Of a stretch of 64,000 nucleotides of DNA, positions 2,419 through 43,142 are shown one piece after another. Position numbers and translations under genes: made by a program. The notes beneath the pieces were generated by a model. The model did no database searches, was not told the DNA's origin, and saw nothing but the letters and a program-made list of their open reading frames with translations. Each line of letters starts with the position of its first letter. Positions within the stretch are counted from its first letter, which is position 1. The stretch is from a virus (lineage: Duplodnaviria; Caudoviricetes), in IMG/VR virus record IMGVR_UViG_3300046461_000123, positions 706-64,705 of that record. One strand, written 5' to 3'.

Positions 2419-5109
2419 ATGAATGTCGTCAAGTCGCTCGTCCCCGCGCCGCTGGGCCTGACTTCGCTTGCCAGCCCCGACGATGCGGCCAACGACATCG
2501 AGATCGAGCTCGTTGGCGACGGGGAGTCCGACGATCCTGAAGGCGACGCGCTGGCCGCGGCAGCCGCAGCGCTGCTGCCGCCGCCGGCCTTTGGCGACAA
2601 CCTGCTCGACATGGCCGACGAGCAGGAGATCAGCCGCCTCAACGGCGACATCGACCAGTGGGTGGACGAGGACAAGCGCAGCCGGCGCGACTGGGAGGAG
2701 ACCTACCGCGACGGGCTCGAGCTGCTGGGGCTCAAGTACGAGGAGCGCACCGAGCCGTGGCAGGGCGCCTGCGGCGTGACGCACCCCATGATCACGGAGG
2801 CGGTGGTGCGCTTCCAGTCCGAGACCATCATGGAGGTCTTCCCGGCGAGCGGCCCGGTCAACACCAAGATCATCGGCGAGGAGACGCAGGACAAGAAGGC
2901 TGCGGCGATGCGCGTCAAGGCCGAGATGAACTACCAGCTCACCGAGCGCATGCTCGAGTTCCGCAGCGAGCACGAGAAGATGCTGTGGAACCTGAGCCCC
3001 GTGGGCTGTGCGTTCAAGAAGATCAACGACGATCCGCTCCTTGGCCGGCAGGTGAGCCTGTTCGTGCCGGCCGAGTGCATCGTGATGCCCTACAGCGCGG
3101 CGAATGTGTATTCGTCCGAGCGCGTCACGCACGTCATGCGCAAGAGCGAGATGGAGATCCAGAGCCTGCAGGCGAGCGGGGTCTACAGCGCCGACGCCGT
3201 GCTGGGCACGCCCTACCGCGAACTCGACGATATACAGGACGCCAAGGACGAAGCCACCGGCTTCAGCGACATCAACGACGAGGGCTACACCCTCTACGAG
3301 ATGCAGGTCAGCATGGTCCTCAAGGGCTGCGAGTGCGACGGTGACTTGAAGCGGCCAAGGCCCTACGTCATCACCAAGATCAAGGGCGGCGCCATGCTGT
3401 CGATCCGGCGCAACTGGATCGAGAACGATCCGCTGTACCTGCGCCGCCAGCACATCGTCCAGTACGACTACATCCCCGGCTTCGGCCCTTATGGCTATGG
3501 CTTGTTCCACCTCATCGGGGGATATGCCAAGGCTGCCACATCGATCCTGCGTCAACTCGTCGATGCCGGAACCCTCTCGAACCTCCCAGGAGGTTTGAAG
3601 ACCAAGGGGTTGCGCATCAAGGGCGACGACACGCCGATCAGCCCTGGTGAATGGCGCGACGTGGACGTGATGTCCGGCGTGCTGCGAGACAACCTCCTGC
3701 CGCTCCCGTACAAGGAACCGAGTCTTGTTCTCGCAGGGCTGCTGGACAAGATCATTGAGGACGGCCGGCGGCTGCCGGGCACGGCCGACATGAAGATCAG
3801 CGACATGAGCGCGCAGACGCCGGTAGGGACCACGCTGGCCCTTCTCGAACGGCAGCTCAAGGTGATGTCCGCGGTGCAGGCGCGCACGCACAACTCCTTC
3901 AAGCAGGAGCTGAAGCTGCTGAAGCAGGTGATCGCGGACAGCGGCGACGACAGCTACACCTACCAGACCACCGCACCGCAGCCGGGCTCCAAGCAGCAAG
4001 ACTTCTCGATGGTCGATGTCATCCCGGTGAGCGACCCGAGCGCGGCCACGATGAGTCAGCGCGTCGTGCAGTACCAAGCCGTGATCCAGCTGTCGCAGCA
4101 GGCGCCCCAGGTCTACGACTTGGCGCAGTTGCACCGCAACATGCTGGAGGTGCTGGGCATCAAGGATCCGGTCAAGCTGGTGCCGATGCCCGACGAAGCG
4201 ATGCCCGCCGATCCGGTGACGGAGAACATGAACGTGCTGATGGGCAAGCCGATCAAGGCGTTCGTGGCGCAGAACCATGCCGCGCACTTGCAGACGCACC
4301 AAGCGATGCTGAACGACCCGGTTGTCATGCAGTCGATCGGCCAGAACCCGAAGGCGCCCATGATGACGGCCGCGATGCAGGCGCACATCGCCGAGCACAC
4401 GGCGTACCAGTACCGCCAGAGTGTCGAGCAGGCGCTCGGACAGCCGCTGCCGGATCCGGGCAAGCCGATGGCGCCGGAACAGGAGCAGCAGCTTGCACAG
4501 GCGCTTGCGCAGGCAGCCGCTCAGGTGCAGCAGACCAACCAGCAGCAGGCGAAGGCCGCGCAGGCTGCGCAGCAGGCGCAGGATCCCATGATGCAGCTGC
4601 AAGTGCGCGCGCTCGATCAGCGCGATCGCGAACTCGGCATCAAGGAGCGCGAGCTGCAGGTCAAGGCGAGCGATCTGGCCGACAAGAACGATCTGTCCGA
4701 GAAGAAGTTCCTGACCGACGCTGCGGACAAGGCCGACAAGCTCGATCTGCAGGAGAAGAAGCTGATGCAGCAAGGCGAGCTGGGCGAGCAGCAGATCGAG
4801 GTCAAGGCGCTGCAGGTCGGCATGATGGGCCGTGCACAGGATCAGGCGCTGCTGGCGCAGGACCGGGCCGATGCACAGGCCAACGTCGATCGGTTGTCGG
4901 CCGAGCACGCCACCAACGAGATCGGCGAGAGCGCTCCGCCAAAGCCGGCGCAGCCGCCGCAGGCGGCTCAGCAGGCAGCGTCCCAGCCACCACCATCGGC
5001 AGCGATATTGGCAGCGGCACAGGCCCCGCAGGCGGCCCCGCAGGGGGCTGCGCAGGCAGGGTCGGCGCCGCAGCAGCTGCCCCCGATTGAACCGAAGGGA
5101 CCGGCATGA
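2419..5109 (+). CDS. Portal protein with long Gln/Ala/Pro-rich C-terminal extension
   Basis: 896 aa after TerL; motifs PWQGACGVTHP, YGYGLFHLIGG, LVDAGTLSNLPGG typical of podovirus-type portals. Confidence 0.88.
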   Translation: MNVVKSLVPAPLGLTSLASPDDAANDIEIELVGDGESDDPEGDALAAAAAALLPPPAFGDNLLDMADEQEISRLNGDIDQWVDEDKRSRRDWEETYRDGLELLGLKYEERTEPWQGACGVTHPMITEAVVRFQSETIMEVFPASGPVNTKIIGEETQDKKAAAMRVKAEMNYQLTERMLEFRSEHEKMLWNLSPVGCAFKKINDDPLLGRQVSLFVPAECIVMPYSAANVYSSERVTHVMRKSEMEIQSLQASGVYSADAVLGTPYRELDDIQDAKDEATGFSDINDEGYTLYEMQVSMVLKGCECDGDLKRPRPYVITKIKGGAMLSIRRNWIENDPLYLRRQHIVQYDYIPGFGPYGYGLFHLIGGYAKAATSILRQLVDAGTLSNLPGGLKTKGLRIKGDDTPISPGEWRDVDVMSGVLRDNLLPLPYKEPSLVLAGLLDKIIEDGRRLPGTADMKISDMSAQTPVGTTLALLERQLKVMSAVQARTHNSFKQELKLLKQVIADSGDDSYTYQTTAPQPGSKQQDFSMVDVIPVSDPSAATMSQRVVQYQAVIQLSQQAPQVYDLAQLHRNMLEVLGIKDPVKLVPMPDEAMPADPVTENMNVLMGKPIKAFVAQNHAAHLQTHQAMLNDPVVMQSIGQNPKAPMMTAAMQAHIAEHTAYQYRQSVEQALGQPLPDPGKPMAPEQEQQLAQALAQAAAQVQQTNQQQAKAAQAAQQAQDPMMQLQVRALDQRDRELGIKERELQVKASDLADKNDLSEKKFLTDAADKADKLDLQEKKLMQQGELGEQQIEVKALQVGMMGRAQDQALLAQDRADAQANVDRLSAEHATNEIGESAPPKPAQPPQAAQQAASQPPPSAAILAAAQAPQAAPQGAAQAGSAPQQLPPIEPKGPA

Positions 5110-6719: not shown

Positions 6720-7168
6720 CTGAAGTCCGTCGCCCTCGCGAGAATGACTCGCGCGCAGAAACCGTTCGTGAGGAGTACGTCCCTCCGAGCACCTTGCCTG
6801 TCCCGAATGCCGTCGAAGGATTCAGCTTTCACTGGGTCTCTACGCAGGTGCTGGGGATTGCCGATCCCACCAACGTCAGCAAGAAGATGCGCGAAGGTTG
6901 GGTGCCGGTCAAGGCAGCGGACCATCCCGAGCTGATGCTGCCTGCCACTGCGGCCGGCAATGTGGAAGTCGGTGGCCTGATGCTGTGCAAGATGCCCACG
7001 GCGCGGCTGCGTGCGCGCAATGCGTACTACGCCGATCAGGCGCGCAAGCAGATGCAGTCTGTGGATACCGCTCTCATGCGCAACAACGACCCTCGCATGC
7101 CGCTGTTCGTGGAACGCAAGTCCAAGACGGTGCGCGGCGATTCTTATTCTTTTGGCAATGGAACCTGA
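6716..7168 (+). CDS. Conserved head-module protein
   Basis: 150 aa, REGWVPVKA...GGLMLCKMP; coupled to upstream stop. Confidence 0.7.
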   Translation: MTEVRRPRENDSRAETVREEYVPPSTLPVPNAVEGFSFHWVSTQVLGIADPTNVSKKMREGWVPVKAADHPELMLPATAAGNVEVGGLMLCKMPTARLRARNAYYADQARKQMQSVDTALMRNNDPRMPLFVERKSKTVRGDSYSFGNGT

Positions 7169-7179
7169 AGGAACCAATC

Positions 7180-7785
7180 ATGTCCCTTACCGCAACTCCC
7201 TACGGGCTGCGCCCCGTAAAGCGCATGGACGGGCTGCCGTATGCCGGCGCCGTCAGCGAGTTTGAAATCAATCCGGCGGGCATCGCCACCAACCTCTTCT
7301 TCGGCTCGATCGTCGCGCTCGACACCAACGGCTACATCGTGCTGGTGACGGCCACTGGTGCGGACGGCACGACCAATGCTCTCCCGGCAGGCACGATGGG
7401 CATCTTCGTCGGCTGCGAGTTCATCAACGCGCTGGGGCAGCAGCAGTTCTCCCAGTACTATCCGGCGAACTACGTCGCGCCGGCCGGCACGAAGATCAAG
7501 GCCAAGGTGGTCGCCGATCCCGATGTGCTGTTCCAGGGCCAGCTGAACGGACCGGCCCTGCAAGCCATGCTGGGGGCGAATACGTTCCTGGCGGCAGTGC
7601 AGAGCACCTCCACCGGCAGCACGCGCACCGGCAACTCCACGTCGGCACTCTCGACGACCGTGCAAACGGCTGCCGCAGCGTTCCGTGTCGTGGCGATCGT
7701 CTCGCCTCTCACGGATAGCTTCGGCGACGTGTTGGTGAAGTTCAACCCTGGCCAGCACAGCTATCTCAACGCTGTCGGCATCTGA
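7180..7785 (+). CDS. Putative capsid decoration/cement protein
   Basis: MSLTATPYGLRPVK start after AAGGA RBS; 201 aa, beta-rich, directly before the capsid gene. Confidence 0.6.
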   Translation: MSLTATPYGLRPVKRMDGLPYAGAVSEFEINPAGIATNLFFGSIVALDTNGYIVLVTATGADGTTNALPAGTMGIFVGCEFINALGQQQFSQYYPANYVAPAGTKIKAKVVADPDVLFQGQLNGPALQAMLGANTFLAAVQSTSTGSTRTGNSTSALSTTVQTAAAAFRVVAIVSPLTDSFGDVLVKFNPGQHSYLNAVGI

Positions 7786-7797
7786 GGAGTAATCAAC

Positions 7798-8730
7798 ATG
7801 GCCATCTCTCGTGCACAACTGATGAAGGAGCTTCTGCCGGGGCTCAATGCGCTGTTCGGACTGGAGTACAAGCAGTACGCCGAAGAGCACAAGGACATCT
7901 TCGACACCGAGTCTTCGGAGCGCTCGTTCGAGGAAGAAACCAAGCTGGCGGGCTTTGGTGCCGCGCCGGTCAAGGCCGAAGGCGACGCGATCGCGTACGA
8001 CAACGCACAGGAGGCGTTCACCTCGCGCTACGTCCACGAGACCATTGCGCTTGGGTTCAGCGTCACCGAGGAAGCGGTCGAGGACAATCTCTACGACTCG
8101 CTCTCGGCGCGCTACACCAAGGCGCTGGCTCGTGCGATGGCGTACACCAAGCAGGTCAAGGGTGCGGCCGTGCTCAACAACGGCTTCAGCCAGAACTTCC
8201 TGGGTGGTGACGGCGTGTCGTTGTTCGGTATCAACTCGGGCGGTACGCGCACCGGGCATCCGCTGGTCGGCGGTGGGTTCAACTTCAACAATCCCGCTGT
8301 CGGCGTGGATCTGAACGAGACCTCGCTCGAGGCGGCGATCATTCAGGTCGCAGCGTGGACCGATGAGCGCGGCCTGTTGATCGCAGCCAAGCCGAAGAAG
8401 CTGGTGGTGCCGCCGTCGCTGATGTTCGTCTGCGTGCGGCTGTTGCAGTCGGAGGGGCGTGTTTCGACCGCCGACAACGACATCAACGCGATTCGCAACA
8501 TGTCGGCAGTTCCGGGCGGCTATACGGTCAACCACTTCCTGACCGACACGAACGCATGGTTCCTGAAGACGGACGTGCCGAACGGCTTGAAGTACTTCGA
8601 TCGCGTAGCGCTCAAGACGAGCATGGATGAGGACTTCGACACCGGCAACTGCCGGTACAAGGCCCGCGAACGCTACAGCTTCGGCTACAGCGATGCGCTG
8701 GGCATGTGGGGTAGCGCCGGCTCGACTTGA
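7798..8730 (+). CDS. Major capsid protein (HK97 fold, Mu gpT-like)
   Basis: 310 aa with strong GAGGAG RBS and downstream terminator; motifs ETIALGFSVTEEA, PKKLVVP, AWFL, YKARERYSFG. Confidence 0.9.
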   Translation: MAISRAQLMKELLPGLNALFGLEYKQYAEEHKDIFDTESSERSFEEETKLAGFGAAPVKAEGDAIAYDNAQEAFTSRYVHETIALGFSVTEEAVEDNLYDSLSARYTKALARAMAYTKQVKGAAVLNNGFSQNFLGGDGVSLFGINSGGTRTGHPLVGGGFNFNNPAVGVDLNETSLEAAIIQVAAWTDERGLLIAAKPKKLVVPPSLMFVCVRLLQSEGRVSTADNDINAIRNMSAVPGGYTVNHFLTDTNAWFLKTDVPNGLKYFDRVALKTSMDEDFDTGNCRYKARERYSFGYSDALGMWGSAGST

Positions 8731-8750
8731 ATCGGGGTTGCGGCACTGGC

Positions 8751-8783
8751 AAAGGCCCCTGCGGGGGCCTTTTCTTTTGTTTT
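8751..8783 (+). terminator. Rho-independent terminator after capsid gene
   Basis: aaaggcccc-tgcg-ggggccttt hairpin followed by T-rich tail. Confidence 0.9.
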
Positions 8784-8889
8784 GAGCAGCGTACACTGCG
8801 CTCGTTCCGGGACTTCAATCCATCGCGCCACGACTGGCCCGGCAGACGACATGCAGACGTGGCACGCATCACTCGCATGTGAGGAACCT

Positions 8890-9141
8890 ATGGCACGTAC
8901 CACTTTCTCTGGTCCGGTCGCTTCTGACAATGGCTTCATCGGTACGCTCCTGCCACCTGCAGGTGTGGGCTACGGCATTCTCTTCACGCCGATCGCCAGC
9001 GCGTCGCTGCCGGCGCCTGCCGCGTCGATCATGGGTGCCGTGGGGCTGGTCAACGACAACGGCGTGGGCAACAACGAATGGTGCCTCGTGATCTGCACGG
9101 GTGCCGCGTGGGTCACTTGCACGGGGCAGGCGCTGACGTAA
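8890..9141 (+). CDS. Small virion protein
   Basis: GAGGA RBS then MARTTFSGPVASDNGF, 83 aa. Confidence 0.65.
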   Translation: MARTTFSGPVASDNGFIGTLLPPAGVGYGILFTPIASASLPAPAASIMGAVGLVNDNGVGNNEWCLVICTGAAWVTCTGQALT

Positions 9142-9151
9142 GGAGTCGGAC

Positions 9152-9409
9152 ATGGGACAGAAAACTAATCCCAGCCCGACGTACCCGACGTTCCCTGGTG
9201 GTGCCGTTGCTGTTGTTCCAAGCGACACGGTGCTGCTGGCAAACCCCTCCGTGATCTACGTGGGGGGTGCGGGCAACGTCAGCGTGCTGACGGAGCAGGG
9301 TGACACCGTGACGTTCACGGCGGTGCCTGTGGGCTCGGTGATTCCGGTGCGCGTGATGCGCGTGAATGCAGCGGTCACGTCAGCGACACTGATGATCGCC
9401 ATCTACTAG
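9152..9409 (+). CDS. Head-spike base protein (RcGTA Rcc01079/GhsA-like)
   Basis: 85 aa; AVAVVPSDT...IYVGGAGNVSV...GDTVTFTAVPVGSVIPVRVMRV...ATLMIAIY matches the remembered family pattern. Confidence 0.8.
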   Translation: MGQKTNPSPTYPTFPGGAVAVVPSDTVLLANPSVIYVGGAGNVSVLTEQGDTVTFTAVPVGSVIPVRVMRVNAAVTSATLMIAIY

Positions 9410-9415
9410 GCATGC

Positions 9416-10201
9416 ATGAGCACCGCGTTCGGTCTCGGCTTCGGGACGCCGGCATACGGTCATGCGAGTGCGGCTGCACCGCCGTTCAATCCTGTGGACC
9501 TGTTCGGGGCCACGGGTGGGGCGCTCTACGACTTCACTGATCCGACGACCCTGTTCACCGACACGACGCGCACTACCCTCGCGTCGTTGGACGGCAAGGT
9601 GCAGGGCGTTTCCGACATTTCGGGCAAGGCGCGGCATCTGAGCAGCGCAAGCACGACCGGTATCGTCCGTCGCACTTCGGGGTTGGAGTTCCAGCCTGCT
9701 GCGAATCTGACGCTTGTCACCGGTACGGCCCTGACCGGTAGCGGTGCCAACGGCTGGACGGCATGCATGGCGATCAAGCCCGATGCCGCGTTGGGCGCCT
9801 ACTCGTGGATGGACGCGGAGCTTGCGAGCTTTTTGGTTGGCCGCATGCTCAGGACCGATACCGTCTACTCGGCGCGTGCGTATGTCTTGGCAGTCAACTA
9901 TGACGCGAGCGGTGGCACGGTCGCAGCGGTGGCGCAGGTAGTGACTGTCAAGGCGGTCCAGTCGGTGATGATCATTCGCGTGAATGGCGTGCAGGTTGCC
10001 ACGGTGGCTTTGGGTGCGGGTGCCCTGGCGGCGCAGGCATCGGGACGCATTTGCATTGGTGCCGCTTACAACAGCTCGTCGAATGCGAACGCTGCGAAGG
10101 CTGTCGGGTTCATGTATGCAGCCCTGCAGATCAATCGAGGGCTGACGACGACCGAGATGGTCAGTTTGGAAGCCTGGATGGCAGCCAAGGCGGGTTTGTA
10201 A
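9416..10201 (+). CDS. Head fibre protein 1 (N-terminus MSTAFGLGFG)
   Basis: GLGFG N-terminal peptide; YDFTDPTTLFTD...DISGKARHL and C-terminal LEAWMAAKAGL; beta-sandwich-like. Confidence 0.7.
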   Translation: MSTAFGLGFGTPAYGHASAAAPPFNPVDLFGATGGALYDFTDPTTLFTDTTRTTLASLDGKVQGVSDISGKARHLSSASTTGIVRRTSGLEFQPAANLTLVTGTALTGSGANGWTACMAIKPDAALGAYSWMDAELASFLVGRMLRTDTVYSARAYVLAVNYDASGGTVAAVAQVVTVKAVQSVMIIRVNGVQVATVALGAGALAAQASGRICIGAAYNSSSNANAAKAVGFMYAALQINRGLTTTEMVSLEAWMAAKAGL

Positions 10202-11004
10202 TGAGCACCGCATTCGGTCTTGGCTTTGGGATGTCGGAGCATGTCATTGCGAGTGGGGGTCCTTCCCCTGGTGTTGCCATCAAGGCGTCGGTGACGGGGT
10301 GGTGGACGCAGGACCAGTCGGCGGCCAATGCGACGGTGCCGGCTGCTGTTGGCCCCATCATGACCGGCACGGTGAACGGCAGCGTCAACTTCCACGCCGG
10401 GCACCTCGGTCTCGGCTACAACGGGTATCCCAGCGGTGCGGGCTTCTGCACTGTGATCATAGGGAGCATGGCCCCGTTCAGAATGAACGGATCTACCAGT
10501 TTCTCCTGGGGAGGCTGGGTCATGCCTGTAGCCTTTAACGAGGTCGGTGGTGGGAACTTGAGTCAGGCCATCGGCCGGATGACAAACGGGACATCACAGT
10601 CGGGCTATGGCATCTTGGTGACGCGCGACAGTACCAACCGGCAGTGGCTTTGCCAGCTGAGCAGCACGGGTGCCAATGTCGCGGCTTCGGTGCAGCAGCC
10701 TTATGCTCTGACAGACCAGGGCGTCTGGCAGTTCGTGGTCGGCATCTTCGACAAAGTGGCTGGCGAGCTTCGTTTCTGGCTCAACGCGACCAAGGTTTCG
10801 ACGCCTTATGCCGGGGCCATCTTCGACAGTACGACGGCCAATTTTGCTTCGTTCATCGGGGTGAACAGCAACAACGCACAAGATCCGTCGCGGTTCTTCC
10901 CGCAGTACCAAGACGAGGTGTTCTTCATGAACAAGGCGCTTACCGATGCAGAGGTGGCCTACCTCTACAACGGCGGTGTTGGCCGCGCTTATTCGGAGCT
11001 TTGA
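10201..11004 (+). CDS. Head fibre protein 2 (MSTAFGLGFG; LamG/ConA-like)
   Basis: ATG overlaps upstream stop; FSWGGWV, WQFVVG, DEVFFMNKALTDAEVAYLYN LamG-like motifs. Confidence 0.72.
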   Translation: MSTAFGLGFGMSEHVIASGGPSPGVAIKASVTGWWTQDQSAANATVPAAVGPIMTGTVNGSVNFHAGHLGLGYNGYPSGAGFCTVIIGSMAPFRMNGSTSFSWGGWVMPVAFNEVGGGNLSQAIGRMTNGTSQSGYGILVTRDSTNRQWLCQLSSTGANVAASVQQPYALTDQGVWQFVVGIFDKVAGELRFWLNATKVSTPYAGAIFDSTTANFASFIGVNSNNAQDPSRFFPQYQDEVFFMNKALTDAEVAYLYNGGVGRAYSEL

Positions 11005-11029
11005 TCATGATTACTGCAGGCAGGCTCAC

Positions 11030-11767
11030 ATGAGCACCGCATTCGGTCTTGGCTTTGGGATGCCGCACGTTGCCAAAAACGCTGGGGCTGCAGTCGCGCC
11101 AACCGACCCCTACATCGCCAATGTTGTCTTTGGCTCTAGTTTTGAGGGGGCCAATGCAGGTACTACGTTCATTGATTGGTCTACTTATGGGCGCGCTATT
11201 TCAATAACTGGTTCTGGCGTAACAACTTCTACAACAAATCCCAAATTTGGGGCTTCTGCTGCTAATTTTACTAATGCTGGTGGTTTAGTTGTCAGTAATG
11301 CTGATAACGTACTTAACCTTGGTACTGGCGATTTCACGATAGAAGGATGGTTCTACAAAGCTACCGGCGGCGGCGGCACAGATTACGCTCTTTACTGGGG
11401 GCCATCAAGCAATGTGTCCTGGCTTTACGTTCGCCCTTGGGGTGGTAATGCTGTCGCTCTTGCTGCAAAAACTGACACTGGTCTATCTGGGAGCAACACG
11501 ATAAACAGCATAGCTGATAATGCATGGCATAGCTTTGCAATTACTCGAACTGGAAACAGTGTTTACTTCTTCATCGATGGTGTTCTAGTTCTGACCACCG
11601 GTGCAAGTACCGGCAACTTTAATCCAGGCCCGAATTTCACCCTCGGTTGCAACGTCACAGGTGGGTCGCTACTGACGGGGCAAATAGACGAAATCAGAGT
11701 CACTAAAGGTGTAGCGAGGTACACATCTAATTACACGCCGCCGGTTGCTGCATTCCCTCGGAGTTAA
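11030..11767 (+). CDS. Head fibre protein 3 (MSTAFGLGFG; LamG/ConA-like; lower GC)
   Basis: GDFTIEGWF, WHSFAITR, FFIDG, GQIDEIRVTKGVARY; visibly AT-richer codon usage. Confidence 0.8.
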   Translation: MSTAFGLGFGMPHVAKNAGAAVAPTDPYIANVVFGSSFEGANAGTTFIDWSTYGRAISITGSGVTTSTTNPKFGASAANFTNAGGLVVSNADNVLNLGTGDFTIEGWFYKATGGGGTDYALYWGPSSNVSWLYVRPWGGNAVALAAKTDTGLSGSNTINSIADNAWHSFAITRTGNSVYFFIDGVLVLTTGASTGNFNPGPNFTLGCNVTGGSLLTGQIDEIRVTKGVARYTSNYTPPVAAFPRS

Positions 11768-11773
11768 TTTGCG

Positions 11774-11914
11774 ATGCTCACCGCAGGCGTTCTCAAGTTC
11801 GATGCCCAGGGCCGGATCATCCTGTCGGCTGAAGCCCCGATTGCGTTCAACGGGGGCATGCGAACACCACTTATGTTGTTCCATCACCTGATCATGCGGG
11901 TAGTACTTTTGTAA
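11774..11914 (+). CDS. Short ORF, possibly a truncated gene (MLTAGVLKFDAQGRIILS...)
   Basis: 46 codons read by hand; its start resembles the 8-codon remnant at 11007-11033. Confidence 0.35.
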   Translation: MLTAGVLKFDAQGRIILSAEAPIAFNGGMRTPLMLFHHLIMRVVLL

Positions 11915-11924
11915 AGGATTAATC

Positions 11925-12749
11925 ATGCGCAGGAACGATTACTACGCCAAGGGCGGCACGGTGTCAGATGCAGATGCCAAGAAGGAGCTGTCCTTCATGA
12001 AGGCCAAGGGTGCTCCCGCGAGCATGATCAAGGCCGAGAAGAAGGAGCACAACTTCGCCAAGGGCGGCATGGTGGCAGATGCAGATGCCAAGCAGGAGTT
12101 GTCCTTCATGAAGGCCAAGGGTGCGCCTGCGGGCATGATCAAGGCCGAGAAGAAGGAGCGCGGCTTTGCCGATGGCGGCATGGTGCAGGGCCGCGGTGCC
12201 TTCAGGCGTGGGCCGGTGCAGCCGGTGCCGGCGGGTCCGCAGGCACCGGTAGGTCCACAGGTGGCGCAGGCACCGGGGATGCAAGGTGCACGTCAGCCGC
12301 CGCCCCAGTGGCTCGCTGCCAGAGCTGCGCAGGAGCGGATGCTGGCGTCGCCGCAGGGTCAAGCCATGATGGCGCAGCGTGCGCAGCTGGCCCAGCAGCA
12401 GGTCGCGCGTGCGCAGGATCCCACGATGCAGGCCGCGCGTGCGCCGCGAGGTATGCTGCAGCAAGCTCCGGGCATGATGCAGCAGGGTCCGGGCATGATG
12501 CCGCAGCAGGGTCCGGGCATGATGGCTGGAGCTCAAGTGGATCCGAACTCACAGCCCGGTCAAGTGGCTCCTGGCACGCAGTCGGGTGGCGGGGCGCTGC
12601 CACCGGCAGTGTTGGCGCAGATGCAGGCGCAGGATCAGGCGCGCAGTCAGGTGCGCGATCAGGCCAATGCACGGCCACCGGGCATGGCCAAGGGCGGCAG
12701 CGTCGATGGCTGTGCAGCGCGGGGTCGGACCAAAGGTACGATGCGGTGA
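11925..12749 (+). CDS. Low-complexity protein with repeated AxGG motifs
   Basis: 274 aa; duplicated 37-aa unit, Q/M/P-rich middle, C-terminal DGCAARGRTKG. Confidence 0.7.
   Translation: MRRNDYYAKGGTVSDADAKKELSFMKAKGAPASMIKAEKKEHNFAKGGMVADADAKQELSFMKAKGAPAGMIKAEKKERGFADGGMVQGRGAFRRGPVQPVPAGPQAPVGPQVAQAPGMQGARQPPPQWLAARAAQERMLASPQGQAMMAQRAQLAQQQVARAQDPTMQAARAPRGMLQQAPGMMQQGPGMMPQQGPGMMAGAQVDPNSQPGQVAPGTQSGGGALPPAVLAQMQAQDQARSQVRDQANARPPGMAKGGSVDGCAARGRTKGTMR
11945..12160 (+). repeat. 111-bp in-frame tandem duplication
   Basis: cgccaagggcggca...gcatgatcaaggccgagaagaaggagc at 11945 and 12056. Confidence 0.9.
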
Positions 12750-12752
12750 TTC

Positions 12753-13430
12753 ATGGCTACCTCCGGCACCACGATATACAACTTGGAGTTGATCGACCTC
12801 ATTGAAGAGGCGGGGGAGCGCTGCGGCATCGAAATTCGTGCGGGACATCAGGTCCGCACGGCACGGCGCAGTCTGAATCTGCTGTTGGCGGAGTGGGCCA
12901 ATCGCGGTATCAACCTGTGGACGATCGATCAGCTCGAGATCCCCTTGGTCGATGGCCAGGAAATCTACTTGCTGCCGCCTGACACGGTGGACGTGTTCGA
13001 GGTGGCGGTGCGCACGGGCACGGGAAGCATGCAGACCGACTTGATGCTCAACCGCATCAGCACGTCTGTCTACACGACGATCCCGAACAAGCTGTCGTCT
13101 GGGCGGCCGTACCAGATGCTGGTCAACCGGCGTGCGGCCACGCCATCGCTGACCTTGTGGCCTGTGCCGAACAGCAGCACGCTCTACACGATGGTTGTGT
13201 GGCGCTTGCGTCGGCTGGAGGATGCTGGCAATGGCCTGAACACGCAGGACATTCCGTTCAGGTTTCTGAACGCGCTGACGGCGGGGCTGGCCTACCAGCT
13301 CGCGATGAAGATTCCCGAGGCACTGCCCCGCTTGACGGCGTTGAAGGCGCAGTATGACGAGGCGTGGATGCTCGCGGCCGACGAGGATCGCGAGAAGGCA
13401 CCCGTGCGTTTTGTTCCAAGGATGTTCTGA
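12753..13430 (+). CDS. Putative head-tail adaptor/connector protein
   Basis: 225 aa; ARRSLNLLLAEWANRGINLW, LWPVP, IPFRFLNALTAGLAYQLA. Confidence 0.7.
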   Translation: MATSGTTIYNLELIDLIEEAGERCGIEIRAGHQVRTARRSLNLLLAEWANRGINLWTIDQLEIPLVDGQEIYLLPPDTVDVFEVAVRTGTGSMQTDLMLNRISTSVYTTIPNKLSSGRPYQMLVNRRAATPSLTLWPVPNSSTLYTMVVWRLRRLEDAGNGLNTQDIPFRFLNALTAGLAYQLAMKIPEALPRLTALKAQYDEAWMLAADEDREKAPVRFVPRMF

Positions 13431-13726
13431 TGAGCACGCCCTACGCATCAGGCAAGCGGTCATGGGGGTTCTGCGACCGCTGCAACTTCCGCTATCGGCT
13501 GCGCACGTTGCGCACGGAGACGGTTGCGGGGCGCGAGAACAACCTGCTCGTGTGCCGCGCTTGCTGGGATCCTGATCATCCGCAGAACTGGCAAGGGCGC
13601 TACCCGGTGTTCGATCCCCAGGCATTGCGCGACCCGCGGCCTGACCCGTCGATGGCTGCGTCGCGTGTACTCAATCCGGATCCGGTGCCAAACCCGATCC
13701 CGATACCAACCATTCCACCGTCCTAA
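13430..13726 (+). CDS. Small Cys4 protein
   Basis: CDRC...CRAC followed by DHPQ and DPRPD; ATG overlaps upstream stop. Confidence 0.7.
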   Translation: MSTPYASGKRSWGFCDRCNFRYRLRTLRTETVAGRENNLLVCRACWDPDHPQNWQGRYPVFDPQALRDPRPDPSMAASRVLNPDPVPNPIPIPTIPPS

Positions 13727-13734
13727 AGGAGACC

Positions 13735-14088
13735 ATGATGGCTATGTCACGCAGTCGGCCCAAGGAAATGATGCCGTTCGGCAAGGGCAATACCAAGCCG
13801 TTCGGTGCCAAGGGCAAGGCAACGCCGTTCGGCGCCAAGGGCAGGTCAACGCCATTCGCTGAGGCCCCGACGCCTACGATCCCGCCCACGCCCAAGAAGG
13901 GCAAGAACCCGTTCGCCTTTGCTGGGGGCGGCAGTGTCGCGAACGCGAGCCCGACGCACAAAGCGGGGCCAGCGTCGAACCCGCCGTCGTCATTCAGTGC
14001 GCTCGATGACGGGCAGCCATCGGGTGGTGGCCAGATACGGGGTACGCGTCTGGCGACGCGCGGCAAGAAGTTCCAGGGTGTCTTCTGA
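13735..14088 (+). CDS. Basic low-complexity protein (PFGAKG repeats, FAGGG motif)
   Basis: 117 aa, AAGGAG RBS. Confidence 0.65.
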   Translation: MMAMSRSRPKEMMPFGKGNTKPFGAKGKATPFGAKGRSTPFAEAPTPTIPPTPKKGKNPFAFAGGGSVANASPTHKAGPASNPPSSFSALDDGQPSGGGQIRGTRLATRGKKFQGVF

Positions 14089-14091
14089 ATC

Positions 14092-14724
14092 ATGGACTAC
14101 ACGGCTCTCAGTGCTGCGGTTGTCAGCTCGATCGGCAACACGTTCGATCCGGCGGACATAGCTCGTTTTGCTCAGCTCACTGAGCAGAAAATCTATAACG
14201 CGGTACAGATCCCTGCGCTGCGCAAGAACCAGACGAGCAACATGTCGGTTGGCAATGCCTACCTGACGCTGCCGGCGGACTACCTGTACGCGTACTCGCT
14301 GGCGGCGATGGAGCCGGTCACGGGCGCGTACGTGTACCTGCTCAACAAGGACGTGAACTACGTCCGTGAGATGTTTCCCGAGCCGGCGGTGCAAGCGATC
14401 CCGCGGTGCTACGCACAGTTCGATGAGAACACGCTGCTCCTGGCACCGGTGCCGGATCAGGCGTACGCGATCGAGCTTCACTACGGCTACTACCCGGAGT
14501 CGGTCGTCACGGCGGGCACGACGTGGCTCAGTGCCAATTTCGACTCGGCGTTGCTCAACGGGATGCTGGTCGAGGCAGCACGCTTCATCAAGGAAGAACA
14601 GGATGTCGTGGCGCTGTACGACAAGCTGTTCATGGACGCGATGTCACTGCTCAAGCAACTGGGCGATGGCAAGCTGCGGCAGGACACCTACCGCACGCCA
14701 CAAGTGAAGGACAGCGTGCGATGA
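14092..14724 (+). CDS. Second adaptor-like virion protein
   Basis: 210 aa; YLTLPADYL, LLAPVPDQAYAIELHY, TTWLS...LLNGMLVEAA. Confidence 0.65.
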   Translation: MDYTALSAAVVSSIGNTFDPADIARFAQLTEQKIYNAVQIPALRKNQTSNMSVGNAYLTLPADYLYAYSLAAMEPVTGAYVYLLNKDVNYVREMFPEPAVQAIPRCYAQFDENTLLLAPVPDQAYAIELHYGYYPESVVTAGTTWLSANFDSALLNGMLVEAARFIKEEQDVVALYDKLFMDAMSLLKQLGDGKLRQDTYRTPQVKDSVR

Positions 14725-15075: not shown

Positions 15076-16902
15076 ATGCCCAGTAGCTACACCCCACTCC
15101 TGCGCTTGACGCTGCCGGCTGACGGTGAGCTTGTTGGCACCTGGGGGCAGACGGTCAACACCGGCATCACGACGCTGGAAGAGGCGGCTGTCGCCGGTAC
15201 GGTTGCTGTCGCGATGGCGGATGCCAACCAGACGCTGACCGTGGCCAACGGTGCGACGGATCAAGCGCGGTACAACACGATCCGGCTCACTGGCGTGCTC
15301 ACGGCGCAGCGCAATGTCATCTGTCCTTCGAGCAGCAAGAACTACTTCGTGCGCAACGCCACCACGGGTGGTTTCGGCATCAACTTCAAGACCGCTGCAG
15401 GCACCGGCATTGTCGTGCCGGCGGGGACAGCAGCGGTGCTGTACTGCGATGGCACGAACGTCCTCTCAGCGGTCAATAGCTTCGCTGATGTGACGGAGTT
15501 CAATGCGGCTGAAGCCATCCGCTTGTCCGCGTCTGGTGCGGCCATCGTGTGGCGACTGAATGATGCTGAAGAACCTCCTGGCTTGGTCATCTCACGCAAC
15601 GCTGCATCGCAGATCATGATCTTGCGCGGCCGGGGCGGCGTGTCGATCGAGGACAGCACAACGGCGGTTCAGTTTTTTTCCGCCATGTTGGTGCCGCAAA
15701 CTGACAAGGGTGTGGATCTTGGAGCCGTAGCGCAGCGTTGGGCTAATGCGTACATCGGTGGTGTTGCCGTGTTCAGTGGCGGTGACAGCGCGCCGATCAT
15801 ATTGAGCGGCACCAATGCAGCCATTGTTTGGAACAAGGGCGGGCCGAACCTTGCAGTCATCAACTACGTGGACACCATGTCGCAGTTCGGGCTCACCACG
15901 ACTGGGGCTAATGGCATCTACTTTGAGACCGATCGTGGCTTGCGGTTCGTGACCACGCGCTTCGGTCCCGACGTTGACAGGGCCATCGACCTGGGCACGA
16001 CGGCGCTGCGGTGGAATAACGCGTACATCGGCAGCATCATCGACTACAGCACGCTGACCATGCAGTCCGACACTTCTGGCGCCGTCGTTTGGAAGAATGC
16101 CGATGGCTTGCAGCGGGGCTACATCAGCAACGATCAAGCCACTGGCATTGGCTACTGGGTTGGCGGTACTGCACTGGTCTTGGCGAACAGCGCGGCTACG
16201 CTGCAGTTTTATGGCACGGCTTTGCGAGGAGCGGTCACTGACACCATCTCGATTGGCGAGCCCGGCAATCAGTTCGCTGCTTGCTACGCGGGGAGGTTTC
16301 AGGCTTACGTCACGCCTAGCGGTGGAAGCTTCGGATTGCAGGTCAACTGCGAGGTTCCGAATGTTGGCGGCAACGCGCCCGTATGGCGTGCTTCGCCGGC
16401 CGCTTCGGAGCCGTCAACCTACAACAGTGGGTTTGTCGCCACCATGAAGTCCCAGCCGGGTTTCCCGATTTTCAGGTACGACTTCTCGCTGGCGCAGTAC
16501 TCGGGCTACAACGGCTATTCATGCTCGGTCCATGCGGATACGGGCCAGTGGGCCTTTTCGGTGGCCATCAGCAACCCGTCGAGCAGCCGCTTGAAGTCGA
16601 ACTGGATGTATGAGATGGGTGCGGTGGTGGACGGGCTGGCAGACATCACCGAGGTAGGCAGTTTCGACTTCACCATCGGCACTTATCCGAAGGACTTCCC
16701 GGTCGCAGCGAAGCGGGGTTTGCCGATCACGATACGGCAGGTTGGTGTCAGCGCCGAGCAGCTGCGGCGGGTCATGCCTGATGCGGTGTCGGAACCTAAC
16801 GGTGATGGCGTGCTGAACGTGACTTACGGTAATGCGGCGCTGGTTGCCGCTGTCGCGCTGGCCAAACGCATCAAAGCCATTGAGACATTAATGGGCATCT
16901 AG
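15076..16902 (+). CDS. Tail fibre with C-terminal intramolecular chaperone (S74-like)
   Basis: GTWGQTVN N-terminal anchor; DLGxxxxRWxNAY repeats; SSSRLKSN, VGVSAEQL, VTYGN and terminal coiled coil. Confidence 0.85.
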   Translation: MPSSYTPLLRLTLPADGELVGTWGQTVNTGITTLEEAAVAGTVAVAMADANQTLTVANGATDQARYNTIRLTGVLTAQRNVICPSSSKNYFVRNATTGGFGINFKTAAGTGIVVPAGTAAVLYCDGTNVLSAVNSFADVTEFNAAEAIRLSASGAAIVWRLNDAEEPPGLVISRNAASQIMILRGRGGVSIEDSTTAVQFFSAMLVPQTDKGVDLGAVAQRWANAYIGGVAVFSGGDSAPIILSGTNAAIVWNKGGPNLAVINYVDTMSQFGLTTTGANGIYFETDRGLRFVTTRFGPDVDRAIDLGTTALRWNNAYIGSIIDYSTLTMQSDTSGAVVWKNADGLQRGYISNDQATGIGYWVGGTALVLANSAATLQFYGTALRGAVTDTISIGEPGNQFAACYAGRFQAYVTPSGGSFGLQVNCEVPNVGGNAPVWRASPAASEPSTYNSGFVATMKSQPGFPIFRYDFSLAQYSGYNGYSCSVHADTGQWAFSVAISNPSSSRLKSNWMYEMGAVVDGLADITEVGSFDFTIGTYPKDFPVAAKRGLPITIRQVGVSAEQLRRVMPDAVSEPNGDGVLNVTYGNAALVAAVALAKRIKAIETLMGI

Positions 16903-42299: not shown

Positions 42300-43115
42300 T
42301 CAAACGCGCTTGTAGCGCAGCGCGCCCAGCGCAACCAGCGCAAGACCTACCAGTGCCAGCGATCCGGGCTCGGGCACATTGGTCGTGCCGGGGCCGTTGC
42401 CGGCCAGATACGCCCACTCCTCGTAACCGTCAGCGGTGGTCGCCGACCCGCCGGCCCCGCCATAGGTCACGCCGAAGATGATCCGGCTGTCGAGCGCCAC
42501 GTTGGCGAAGTCCATGACCGGGATCAGCATGGACAAGTCATAGCCCAGGCCGCTGCCATTGAACAGCGTACCGTCCATCACGATGTCGTTGCCCGGACCC
42601 ATCGCATAGATCAGCGATGAGAACAGGTTGTCGATGTCGCTGAACTGCGTGACGTTGGCGTTGGTGAGCAGCTGCAGCGCGGCCGACTTGGCATCCCAGA
42701 TGCGGATGGTGTCGATCGAGATCTGCTTGTCCTGCGCGCTGCTCGGCTCGTTGGTGTCGAGGAAGAACTGGTAGTACTGCACGCCACCAATGGTCCGGAC
42801 GCCTAGCTGGTTCTGGGTGAACGTCGTGGTGAACGTGTTGACGTTATCGCGCTTGTCCTGCAGCGGCAACGTGTTCACGATCGGCGAGTCGGTCGTCACT
42901 CCGCCCTCGGTCCCGTTCTGCTGCGAAGTCAGGAAGGGGTTGATCGTCCCCGATCCGATGTTCGACAGGTTCGTCGGGTTCGAGTAGATCACCGTGCCCC
43001 CGCTGGTGTCGGTCGCGAACGAGCAGGTGCCATCCTTCGCGAACAGCGTGCAGACACCTGCCTGTGCAACGCCCATGACAGCCAACAAGGCTGCCGCCAA
43101 TAGCGATTTCTTCAT
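42300..43115 (-). CDS. PEP-CTERM sorting-domain surface protein
   Basis: Signal peptide MKKSLLAAALLAVMGVAQA; C-terminal VPEPGSLALVGLALVALGALRYKRV. Confidence 0.93.
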   Translation of the reverse strand: MKKSLLAAALLAVMGVAQAGVCTLFAKDGTCSFATDTSGGTVIYSNPTNLSNIGSGTINPFLTSQQNGTEGGVTTDSPIVNTLPLQDKRDNVNTFTTTFTQNQLGVRTIGGVQYYQFFLDTNEPSSAQDKQISIDTIRIWDAKSAALQLLTNANVTQFSDIDNLFSSLIYAMGPGNDIVMDGTLFNGSGLGYDLSMLIPVMDFANVALDSRIIFGVTYGGAGGSATTADGYEEWAYLAGNGPGTTNVPEPGSLALVGLALVALGALRYKRV

Positions 43116-43142
43116 TTGTTTCTCCTGAGAAGTTGAGAAGTA

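What the first reader, a model, noticed from the sequence alone, without database searches (positions are those of the whole stretch)
9152..11767. Modular head-spike system: one GTA-type spike base, three alternative fibres sharing an identical docking peptide
Seen: an 85-aa gene followed by three tandem genes (9416, 10201, 11030) that all begin MSTAFGLGFG and then diverge into different beta-sandwich bodies, two of them clearly LamG/ConA-like. Established (recalled): in the Rhodobacter capsulatus gene transfer agent, Rcc01079 forms a pentamer on capsid vertices and holds one Rcc01080 fibre by a short GLGLG-type N-terminal peptide, and the spike binds capsular polysaccharide. Inference: the three fibres compete for the same socket, so each virion, or the population, displays a mixed set of glycan binders. 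This would be a plug-in adhesin system for several EPS/capsule types, separate from the tail fibre.
Basis: partly seen in the sequence, partly recalled or inferred. Interest (0 to 1): 0.88.

Follow-up and report, generated by a model that had tools for sequence, protein, structure and literature searches.

The report
Capsid spike with three plug-in fibres
A soil phage encodes a small capsid-vertex socket protein like that of the Rhodobacter gene transfer agent, followed by three unrelated lectin-like fibres that all start with the same ten-residue plug, so one socket probably carries interchangeable sugar binders.

Summary
Gene 9152-9409 (85 aa) is followed by three genes (9416, 10201, 11030) that all begin MSTAFGLGFG and are otherwise unrelated.

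The 85-aa protein is a true homologue of the RcGTA head-spike base Rcc01079 and of the Carin-1 phage spike base. The family profile scores E 3.7e-13 and 1.8e-9. The model scores TM 0.73 and 0.77, and these are the only two PDB folds with E <= 0.001.

The shared peptide alternates hydrophobic and glycine residues, like the RcGTA fibre peptide that lies as a five-point star on the base pentamer. Fibres 2 and 3 are Pfam Laminin_G_3. Fibre 1 belongs to a divergent family of the same fold.

The closest relative has one fibre in the same slot. Homology breaks just after the plug codons and resumes after fibre 3, which has foreign codon usage (GC3 0.42 against 0.74-0.84).

None of 232 stored related loci has two genes sharing a start peptide. 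The three-gene array stands letter-perfect in independent metagenome runs.

Docking, competition and mixed display remain inferred. This is a new variant of a known kind.

The parts
7798..8730 (+). Major capsid protein, the presumed platform whose pentons carry the spike
   Evidence: Pfam PF25209 Phage_capsid_4 at 38.2 bits; phrog_371 major head protein; 86% identical in the closest relative L003. A terminator-like hairpin follows at 8751-8772.
9152..9409 (+). Head-spike base protein (85 aa), homologue of RcGTA Rcc01079 and the Carin-1 spike base
   Evidence: phmmer against PDB: 6tb9_E3, E 6.6e-5. Profile of 39 homologues: Rcc01079 E 3.7e-13, 8cjz_h E 1.8e-9. AF2 model pLDDT 83.2 with six strands. 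Foldseek: 6tb9_A1 TM 0.73, rmsd 1.5 A; 8cjz_h TM 0.77. phrog_12296, E 2.2e-15.
9416..9448 (+). Docking-peptide codons 1-11 of fibre 1 (MSTAFGLGFG + Thr)
   Evidence: Three synonymous differences from the other two copies point to selection on the peptide. Homology with relative L003 runs up to about window 9453 and then stops.
9416..10201 (+). Head fibre 1 (261 aa): plug, Ala/Pro/Gly linker, divergent ConA-like body
   Evidence: No Pfam hit of its own. 248 remote homologues at E <= 1e-3. 6 of 40 aligned homologues hit PF13385. The ESM Atlas's own model (pTM 0.80) matches Laminin_G_3 clusters at TM 0.70-0.83.
10201..10233 (+). Docking-peptide codons 1-11 of fibre 2 (33 nt identical to the fibre 3 copy)
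   Evidence: In run X1 this 33-mer is a separate contig node at depth 33, against about 21 for the flanking pieces.
10201..11004 (+). Head fibre 2 (267 aa), Laminin_G_3 body
   Evidence: PF13385, E 4.8e-11, 43.4 bits, residues 96-253.
11030..11062 (+). Docking-peptide codons 1-11 of fibre 3
11030..11767 (+). Head fibre 3 (245 aa), Laminin_G_3 body of foreign composition
   Evidence: PF13385, E 2.9e-13, 50.7 bits. phrog_3545 E 1.1e-32 and phrog_24074 E 1.3e-31, matching inner parts of proteins of about 900-1100 aa. GC 0.49 and GC3 0.42, against GC3 0.74-0.84 in the seven neighbouring genes. Best non-self homologues are only 30-39% identical.
9454..11908 (+). Variable cassette: no DNA homology to the closest relative, which holds one 245-aa fibre body here
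   Evidence: blastn of window 7000-14000 against L003: 82% identity over window 7006-9453, resuming at window 11909.

Best explanation
The region encodes a capsid-vertex head spike of the RcGTA/Carin-1 type with an expanded fibre set. SHOWN: the 85-aa protein is a jellyroll homologue of the head-spike base. Three co-oriented, tightly packed genes behind it encode ConA-like/LamG proteins that share only an N-terminal decapeptide of alternating hydrophobic and glycine residues. The variable cassette begins right after that peptide's codons. INFERRED by analogy with the RcGTA structure: five base subunits sit on each capsid penton. One fibre N-terminus lies across the pentamer as a star, with its alternating side chains (Thr3, Phe5, Leu7, Phe9, Met or Thr11) in the five hydrophobic pockets. 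The rest of the fibre then hangs free on a flexible Ala/Pro/Gly linker. Because one peptide fills all five pockets, the three fibres exclude each other at a vertex and are drawn at random onto the eleven non-portal vertices, which gives mosaic virions. Each lectin-fold body would bind a different surface polysaccharide, for reversible first contact that is independent of the tail fibre. The set grew from one to three genes by recombination at the conserved plug codons. Fibre 3 is a recent import from a lower-GC source.
For: Base homology: E 3.7e-13 to Rcc01079, positions 9-80 of 84; the two spike bases are the only PDB folds with E <= 0.001. The RcGTA mechanism is in print (PMC7296036 passages, PMC10218006 passages: the fibre is anchored by residues 2-10 and binds the capsule). 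The peptide class recurs just downstream of base genes elsewhere. By regex, 27 of 107 loci have it; by eye, 22 of those 27 are convincing glycine-alternating starts within 60 nt of the base stop. 6 of the 107 loci were too short to judge. It also occurs in the isolated Verrucomicrobia phage P8625, as gp23 plus a ConA-like gp24. The peptide is under selection: 3 synonymous changes in copy 1. Lectin fold. Cassette boundary at the plug, and foreign GC3 of fibre 3. No promoter-like site, and no terminator-like sites above the shuffle expectation, between the four genes, which fits co-expression. Gene position lies between the capsid/cement genes and the head-tail adaptor. A separate tail-fibre-like gene exists. 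The array is present with equal contig depth for all three segments in run X1 (21.1 / 20.2 / 21.8), and letter-perfect in X4, X5 and X6.
Against: There is no direct evidence of assembly: no virion proteomics, no host, no structure. The plug has three strongly hydrophobic positions plus Thr and Met/Thr, where RcGTA has five Ile/Leu; fibre 1 has Thr at position 11 where the others have Met. Glu12 of Rcc01079, which helps hold the RcGTA base on its capsid, aligns with Pro12 here. The capsid protein shows no sequence match to any solved capsid protein, RcGTA's included, so the footprint on the capsid must differ. PHROGs and RefSeq label the base family 'tail fiber protein', and in P8625 the pair lies behind tail genes. 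No other locus of the 232 scanned has more than one such fibre, so the array could be a transient state. The fibre bodies show no sequence match to the deposited Rcc01080 chain.
Confidence: 0.68

Rival explanations
1. A head spike as above, but only one of the three fibres is used in virions. The others are recently captured or decaying cassettes, or are made under other conditions, so there is no mixed display.
For: In all other loci with a recognisable plug gene there is exactly one. Fibre 3 has unadapted codon usage (GC3 0.42). Fibre 1 differs at plug position 11. The 33-nt identity of copies 2 and 3 could simply reflect a very recent insertion.
Against: All three frames are intact at full length. 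Copy 1 of the plug keeps the peptide through three synonymous changes. The genes are tightly packed, with one start overlapping the previous stop and no terminator-like site above the shuffle expectation. The three segments have equal contig depth and are identical in four runs.
Confidence: 0.17
2. The base and its fibres sit on the tail or neck, not on capsid pentons, as side fibres with exchangeable tips.
For: phrog_12296 and RefSeq records call the base family 'tail fiber protein'. In siphovirus P8625 the pair follows a tail-fibre gene. In T7-like RSJ5 the base ORF lies after the lysis genes.
Against: Both solved homologues are on capsids: the 6tb9 entry title is 'Capsid of native GTA particle', and the 8cjz title is 'Carin1 bacteriophage mature capsid'. 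Five-fold pentamers do not match six- or twelve-fold neck symmetry (my own reasoning). Here the genes lie between the capsid/cement genes and the adaptor. The 'tail fiber' labels are annotation by similarity, not experiment (PMC5026251 passages).
Confidence: 0.07
3. The shared start is not a docking peptide but a DNA or RNA element, for example a recombination site, a translation-initiation element, or a sorting signal.
For: 33 nt are identical in two copies. The cassette boundary coincides with it.
Against: Copy 1 varies at synonymous sites only within the first ten codons. Relatives keep the peptide class with different codons and residues (Phe-Gly or Leu/Ile-Gly repeats). The peptide has no charged n-region or long hydrophobic core like a signal peptide (seen directly in the sequence). 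A recombination role is compatible with, and not an alternative to, docking.
Confidence: 0.04
4. The tandem array is an assembly chimera of strain variants that each carry one fibre.
For: The k-mer graph breaks at the 33-nt repeat in Logan contigs. No laid contig bridges the fibre 2 / fibre 3 repeat completely.
Against: A contig in run X5 bridges fibre 1, through the repeat, into the fibre 2 body (9904-10377). Contigs in X1 and X4 carry the end of fibre 2, the 25-nt spacer and the start of the next plug (to 11059). Segment depths are equal. The exact base and fibre proteins were seen on 4 contigs.
Confidence: 0.02

Closest known systems
RcGTA head spike (Rcc01079/GhsA base and Rcc01080/GhsB fibre) of Rhodobacter capsulatus; PDB 6TB9 and related entries
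   Same: The base is about 85 aa, homologous in sequence and fold. The gene order is base then fibre. The fibre N-terminus alternates hydrophobic residues with Gly. The fibre body has a lectin-like beta fold. The published role is binding capsular polysaccharide.
   Different: Here there are three fibre genes instead of one. The plug is Phe/Leu-Gly with Thr/Met ends rather than five Ile/Leu. The bodies are Laminin_G_3-type, with no sequence match to the Rcc01080 chain in the PDB. The carrier is a 64.7-kb phage with a short-tail-type (SU10/Pam1-like) adaptor, not an HK97-like GTA. Glu12 is not conserved.
Cobetia marina phage Carin-1 capsid 'Spike Base Protein' (PDB 8CJZ chain h)
   Same: A phage, and a podovirus according to PMC13317679 (passages), with a homologous base on its mature capsid. 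Profile E 1.8e-9, TM 0.77.
   Different: I could not read the Carin-1 cryo-EM paper (not held), so I do not know whether a fibre or several fibres are described there.
Base-plus-one-fibre pairs in other phages and prophages: Verrucomicrobia phage P8625 gp23/gp24, IMG/VR contigs, and genomes of the family of G001
   Same: A downstream gene starts with an alternating hydrophobic/Gly peptide.
   Different: Always one plug-bearing gene per locus in what I scanned. The closest relative, L003 (base 79% identical), has a single 245-aa fibre.
Tailspike and tail-fibre systems with several receptor-binding proteins on a shared adaptor (K1-5, CBA120, G7C, T7-like gp17 N-domains): recalled, not checked here
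   Same: The same logic: a conserved N-terminal attachment module on exchangeable receptor-binding bodies, with recombination at the module boundary.
   Different: Those use folded N-terminal domains of tens to hundreds of residues on the tail. Here the module would be a ten-residue linear peptide, the site would be the capsid vertex, and the fibres would compete rather than each having its own site.
Other capsid fibres and decorations (phi29 gp8.5 head fibres, T4 Hoc): recalled
   Same: Non-essential capsid appendages thought to aid adsorption.
   Different: Unrelated folds and attachment modes, and no alternative cargo set.

Membership tests
Rcc01079-type head-spike base (GhsA / Carin-1 spike base) | Sequence homology to Rcc01079 over the jellyroll | tested here: met
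   phmmer E 6.6e-5, residues 20-80 on 20-80. Profile E 3.7e-13, positions 9-80 on 9-80 of 84. 8cjz_h E 1.8e-9.
Rcc01079-type head-spike base (GhsA / Carin-1 spike base) | Small single-domain six-stranded jellyroll of about 85 aa | tested here: met
   AF2 model pLDDT 83.2 with six strands. Foldseek TM 0.73 (rmsd 1.5 A, 72 columns) to 6tb9_A1 and TM 0.77 to 8cjz_h. The next hits have E >= 0.088.
Rcc01079-type head-spike base (GhsA / Carin-1 spike base) | Forms a pentamer on capsid pentons | not testable with these tools
There are no virion data.
Rcc01079-type head-spike base (GhsA / Carin-1 spike base) | N-terminal arm with an acidic residue (Glu12 in RcGTA) that coordinates a cation with the capsid protein | tested here: not met
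   Position 12 is Pro here, and there is no acidic residue in residues 1-24. This is a detail of RcGTA and not clearly family-defining.
Rcc01079-type head-spike base (GhsA / Carin-1 spike base) | Followed by a fibre gene whose N-terminus alternates hydrophobic residues with Gly | tested here: met
   Three such genes. The RcGTA peptide is given in PMC7296036.
Rcc01080-type head fibre (GhsB) | N-terminal peptide of about 9-10 residues that docks in the base pentamer | tested here: inconclusive
   The peptide class is present and conserved. Docking itself is not shown.
Rcc01080-type head fibre (GhsB) | Body homologous to Rcc01080 | tested here: not met
   None of the three fibres hits an Rcc01080 chain in the PDB sequence search at E <= 1 (fibres 2 and 3) or E <= 10 (fibre 1). 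Caveat: I did not verify that the deposited chain holds the full 325 residues.
Laminin_G_3 / ConA-like lectin superfamily (PF13385) | Score above Pfam's gathering cut-off (27.6 bits) | tested here: met
   Fibre 2 scores 43.4 bits and fibre 3 scores 50.7 bits.
Laminin_G_3 / ConA-like lectin superfamily (PF13385) | The same for fibre 1 | tested here: inconclusive
   Fibre 1 has no Pfam hit of its own. 6 of 40 homologues hit PF13385, best E 1e-11. The ESM Atlas model matches Laminin_G_3 clusters at TM 0.70-0.74, with the aligned part named. My own single-sequence AF2 model failed (pLDDT 31.7).
Laminin_G_3 / ConA-like lectin superfamily (PF13385) | Carbohydrate binding | not testable with these tools
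   Inferred from the fold and from RcGTA only.

The most novel reading that the evidence does not exclude
A ten-residue linear 'plug' is a general, transferable address tag for phage capsid vertices. Any lectin body that acquires it by recombination at the plug codons is displayed. A phage can therefore carry a small library of competing cargos and produce mosaic virions that bet-hedge across host glycan types. The wider hint is that small phage LamG proteins of two unrelated body families carry the same few kinds of short N-terminal peptide: hydrophobic-Gly repeats, a Pro/Ser-Tyr-Arg-Phe type, and a Gln-x-Leu-Leu type. This would make 'short peptide address x lectin body' a combinatorial system across phages, and a ready-made natural capsid-display tag.
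Probability: 0.4. Interest if true: 0.75.

Novelty: new variant of a known kind. Interest (0 to 1): 0.6.

Why it matters
Head spikes of the RcGTA type are known from two structures, with one fibre described (for RcGTA). This locus suggests that the socket is generic and that the ten-residue plug is enough to address different cargos to it. That claim is directly testable by pull-down with the recombinant base pentamer, or by a reporter fused to the plug.

If true, three things follow:
- Phages would have a second, capsid-borne layer of host-glycan recognition that evolves by cassette exchange.
- A family now annotated as 'tail fiber protein' or left unannotated in isolated phages (for example RSJ5) would need re-labelling.
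- A minimal peptide tag for decorating capsids would be available.

It matters less if only one fibre is ever mounted.

Tried and rejected
Complex prediction. I wanted five base copies plus a fibre N-terminus. Four copies plus fibre 2 residues 1-40 gave 'no answer' (score 0.00). This is neither support nor evidence against.

AF2 of fibre 1 without an alignment failed (pLDDT 31.7), so I did not search with that model.

The word-index homologue search for fibre 1 found only itself among 7326 candidates. The exhaustive HMMER search then found 248 relatives, so fibre 1 is not an orphan.

hhalign of the fibre 1 family against fibres 2 and 3 gave probabilities of 4.4% and 0.7%, so no relation between the bodies is detectable by sequence.

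Searching IMG/VR for the exact plug found 0 stretches.

The near/distant DNA search of the phage collection found only the capsid gene, in 6 records. The relatives Pag-Yong1 and DSL-LC04 have no spike module in the same slot.

The weak match of the base to Ralstonia-type fucose-binding lectin repeats (E 1.8e-6, with no single stretch significant) drops to E 0.29 with the family profile. I treat it as not meaningful.

RNA evidence: no RNA holder was listed.

Deletion variants between the 33-nt repeats: no joints were listed, but contigs cannot show rare variants.

Literature. Searches for 'head spike'/Rcc01079 (56 papers, 20 listed), 8CJZ (2 irrelevant papers), Carin-1/'head fiber'/'spike base' (487 papers, 25 listed) and GhsA/GhsB/'head spike fiber' (933 papers, 20 listed) showed no description of several fibres sharing one plug. 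I saw listings and passages only. The Carin-1 cryo-EM paper was not held, and supplements were not opened.

One possible precedent remains unchecked. Hynes et al. 2016 (PMC5026251, passages) list prophage genes rcc02905 (base homologue) and rcc02899 and rcc02903 (fibre homologues) in R. capsulatus SB1003. I did not obtain that genome.

A planned look at co-variation between base residues and plug type was stopped (see below).
Full report
WHAT IS THERE. The window is almost the whole of a complete 64,705-bp virus record with direct terminal repeats. Its left part reads as follows:
- large terminase, 766-2337
- portal, 2419-5109
- major capsid protein, 7798-8730, followed by a strong terminator-like hairpin at 8751-8772
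- an 84-aa protein at 8887-9141, whose start resembles that of the annotated 'cement protein' of phage DSL-LC04 (comparison by eye)
- the 85-aa gene, 9152-9409
- the three genes at 9416, 10201 and 11030
- a Lys/Gly-rich repeat protein, 11925-12749
- two SU10-type adaptor paralogues, 12753-13430 and 14092-14724
- a tail-fibre-like gene, 15076-16902
- large virion and ejection-type proteins

So the finding lies at the end of the head module of a phage with a short-tail-type neck.

THE OBSERVATION. All three genes begin MSTAFGLGFG. The back-translated pattern occurs three times, against none in each of 100 shuffles, and nowhere else in the genome. BLASTP between the three proteins aligns only residues 1-11 to 1-27, with nothing significant beyond. 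The first 33 nt of genes 2 and 3 are identical. Gene 1 keeps the ten residues through three synonymous differences and has Thr for Met at codon 11. The genes are packed: a 6-nt gap, then a start overlapping the previous stop, then a 25-nt gap. There is no promoter-like site among them, and terminator-like sites do not exceed the shuffle expectation (6 found against 4.7 +/- 2.6 for the whole 6.5 kb).

THE BASE.
- Against PDB sequences, the 85-aa protein hits 'Head spike base Rcc01079' (6tb9_E3, E 6.6e-5) and 'Spike Base Protein' (8cjz_h, E 0.0033).
- The protein database returned 69 homologues of 72-107 aa at E <= 1e-3, among 89 candidates.
- A profile of 39 of those 69 raises the PDB matches to E 3.7e-13 (positions 9-80 of 84) and E 1.8e-9.
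- The AlphaFold model built on that alignment (pLDDT 83.2, six strands) finds exactly two PDB folds at E <= 0.001: 6tb9_A1 (TM 0.73, rmsd 1.5 A) and 8cjz_h, 'Carin1 bacteriophage mature capsid' (TM 0.77). The next hits are cupins at E 0.088 and TM about 0.46.

PHROGs calls the family 'tail fiber protein' (phrog_12296), and so do some RefSeq records. According to Hynes et al. 2016 that label came from similarity, not experiment (passages).

THE PLUG. Bardy et al. 2020 (PMC7296036, passages read) report eleven spikes per RcGTA head. Each is a pentamer of Rcc01079 with a single Rcc01080. [quoted passage not shown]

The peptide here has the same period of two: Thr3, Phe5, Leu7, Phe9 and Met11 (Thr11 in fibre 1), separated by Ala/Gly. 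The same class of start follows base genes elsewhere. Of 107 related loci (80 from IMG/VR, 27 from GTDB genomes), 6 were too short to judge and 24 had no ORF of 100 aa starting within 150 nt. A regex found an alternating start in 27. I judge 22 of those 27 convincing: Phe-Gly or Leu/Ile-Gly repeats starting 3-60 nt after the base stop. The remaining 50 had other starts. Some of those 50 are near-variants of the same theme, and others are clearly different, for example a Tyr-Trp-x-Gly-Gly type. The isolated Verrucomicrobia phage P8625 has the pair too: gp23, and gp24 annotated ConA-like, whose start alternates Ile/Leu.

THE BODIES.
- Fibres 2 and 3 pass Pfam's cut-off for Laminin_G_3.
- Fibre 3 also matches inner segments of very large phage structural proteins in PHROGs. 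It has 281 homologues at E <= 1e-5, none above 39% identity among the 120 listed.
- Fibre 1 has no Pfam hit, but it has 248 remote relatives (38 at E <= 1e-10), most about 250-270 aa and aligned from about residue 20 to the end.
- 6 of 40 aligned relatives of fibre 1 hit Laminin_G_3.
- The ESM Atlas's own model of fibre 1 (pTM 0.80) matches viral clusters and named Laminin_G_3 clusters at TM 0.70-0.83.

So all three are most likely ConA-like sandwiches, from three families with no detectable mutual sequence relation. None matches an Rcc01080 chain in the PDB sequence set.

HOW THE ARRAY AROSE. The closest relative in IMG/VR (L003; base 79%, capsid 86%, adaptor 88% identical) is colinear at 82% DNA identity from window 7006 to 9453, which is through the base gene and the first ~38 nt of fibre 1. 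It is colinear again from 11909. Between these points it has one 245-aa fibre, 26% identical to fibre 3, where the window has three genes. The left edge of the variable cassette thus coincides with the end of the plug codons. Fibre 3 has GC 0.49 and GC3 0.42, against GC3 0.74-0.84 for the seven neighbouring genes. The composition profile shows the dip at 11-12 kb. This points to a recent import from a lower-GC donor, spliced behind a resident plug.

HOW UNUSUAL.
- Pattern scan: 54 IMG/VR stretches match a Met-Ser-Phe-Gly-Phe-Gly-Phe-Gly start, each exactly once.
- Motif scan: among 133 loci, 6 had two regex hits, none of them a same-strand pair of similar peptides.
- Motif-free test: any two ORFs of >= 120 aa on one strand sharing >= 9 of their first 11 residues. 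This flags the three fibres in the window and 0 of 232 stored loci. At >= 7 of 11 it returns only chance pairs in GC-rich frames.

The 232 loci overlap in part. Several contigs were fetched twice, so they represent roughly 190 distinct places, and many have short downstream flanks. They are the best 80 of more than 516 IMG/VR relatives, 53 pattern hits, 27 GTDB hits, and 40 of the 118 places found in one bacterial family. So this is 'not found in those searched', not 'unique'.

IS IT REAL. The exact base, fibre 1 and fibre 3 proteins are on record from 4 contigs. Ten public runs from soil, rhizosphere and root metagenomes hold words of the stretch, five of them half or more. Contigs of X1 (a possible source) and of X4, X5 and X6 lie on 8700-12300 with 0 other letters in the fibre genes. 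Logan's k-mer contigs break at the 33-nt repeat, which forms its own node at depth 33 against about 21 for the flanks in X1. X5 record 19 spans 9904-10377 across the first junction. X1 record 4 and X4 record 13 run from the fibre 2 body through the spacer into the next plug. The three segments have equal depth (21.1 / 20.2 / 21.8 in X1). No joints were reported.

MECHANISM AND ITS STATUS. Shown: homology of the base, conservation of the plug class next to base genes, the lectin fold of the bodies, and the cassette structure. Inferred: pentamer on pentons, one plug per pentamer, and hence mutual exclusion and mosaic virions with up to eleven fibres drawn from three kinds, plus glycan binding. 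The main weak points are these:
- The plug's hydrophobic set is weaker than RcGTA's.
- The RcGTA capsid-anchoring Glu12 is lacking.
- The capsid protein is unrelated in sequence to any solved one.
- No virion or binding data exist.

I put 0.68 on the full reading, about 0.95 on 'head-spike base homologue', and about 0.5 on all three fibres being mounted.

COMPARISON AND NOVELTY. The kind of system (base pentamer plus peptide-anchored lectin fibre) is known from RcGTA, and a homologous base is known from the Carin-1 capsid structure. New here is the set of three alternative cargos for one plug, with the recombination boundary at the plug. I found no description of this in the four literature searches. 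The Carin-1 structure paper and an R. capsulatus prophage with one base and two fibre homologues remain unchecked. Verdict: a new variant of a known kind, with interest about 0.6.

Noticed in passing
window 11768-11908: The spacer between fibre 3 and the next gene has no counterpart in the closest relative and returns to higher GC. An 86-nt piece (11773-11858) also lies, with 7 other letters, on an otherwise unlike 3,405-nt contig in run X1, and similar contigs occur in X4 and X5 (tables 7 and 8). It overlaps a 46-aa ORF (11774-11914). It may be a remnant of a former cassette end or a shared mobile boundary.
   Followed up: no
homologues of fibre 1 (P0075-P0223) and of fibre 3 (P0225-P0343): Small (200-320 aa) relatives of the two unrelated bodies carry the same few kinds of short N-terminal peptide. 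Hydrophobic-Gly repeats: 15 of 113 and 1 of 99. A Pro/Ser-Tyr-Arg-Phe type: 4 of 113 and 5 of 99. A Gln-x-Leu-Leu type: 6 of 113 and 3 of 99. This hints that short address peptides and lectin bodies are shuffled widely among phages.
   Followed up: partly
L083 (Ralstonia phage RSJ5, NC_029007.1 record 43132-43380): A clear base homologue (50% identity, E 2e-12; an 81-aa ORF) lies in an unannotated stretch after the spanin gene of this T7-like phage. No fibre gene follows before the record's end. Elsewhere the family is labelled 'tail fiber protein' or hypothetical.
   Followed up: partly
genomes of the family of G001 (handles G001-G300): The base-family profile matches 105 of 301 sampled genomes of one bacterial family, 13 of them with two matches. 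The head-spike base is therefore common in (pro)phage or GTA-like regions there.
   Followed up: partly
window 11925-12749: A 274-aa Lys/Gly/Gln/Pro-rich protein with an internal repeat of about 40 aa near its start (seen in the translation). It has no Pfam or PHROG family. Similarly composed proteins sit in the same slot in Pag-Yong1 and L003.
   Followed up: no
window 12753-13430 and 14092-14724: Two paralogous SU10-type adaptor genes (PF24175, E 9.5e-11 and E 3.3e-19) lie 660 nt apart.
   Followed up: no
window 25648-33783: One 2,711-aa ORF in the most GC-rich part of the genome (up to 0.71) has no PHROG family at E <= 1e-5. It follows a 927-aa protein with a weak 'DNA ejection protein' match (phrog_4287).
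   Followed up: no
window 42300-43115 and 43143-43757, minus strand: Two adjacent genes (271 and 204 aa) share 9 of their first 11 residues, in a signal-peptide-like start (Met-Lys-Lys-Ser-Leu-Leu-Ala...).
   Followed up: no
window 9152-9409: The single-sequence search gives a whole-sequence E of 1.8e-6 to triplicated Ralstonia-type fucose-binding lectin chains, summed over three weak repeat matches. With the family profile this falls to E 0.29, so it is probably compositional.
   Followed up: yes
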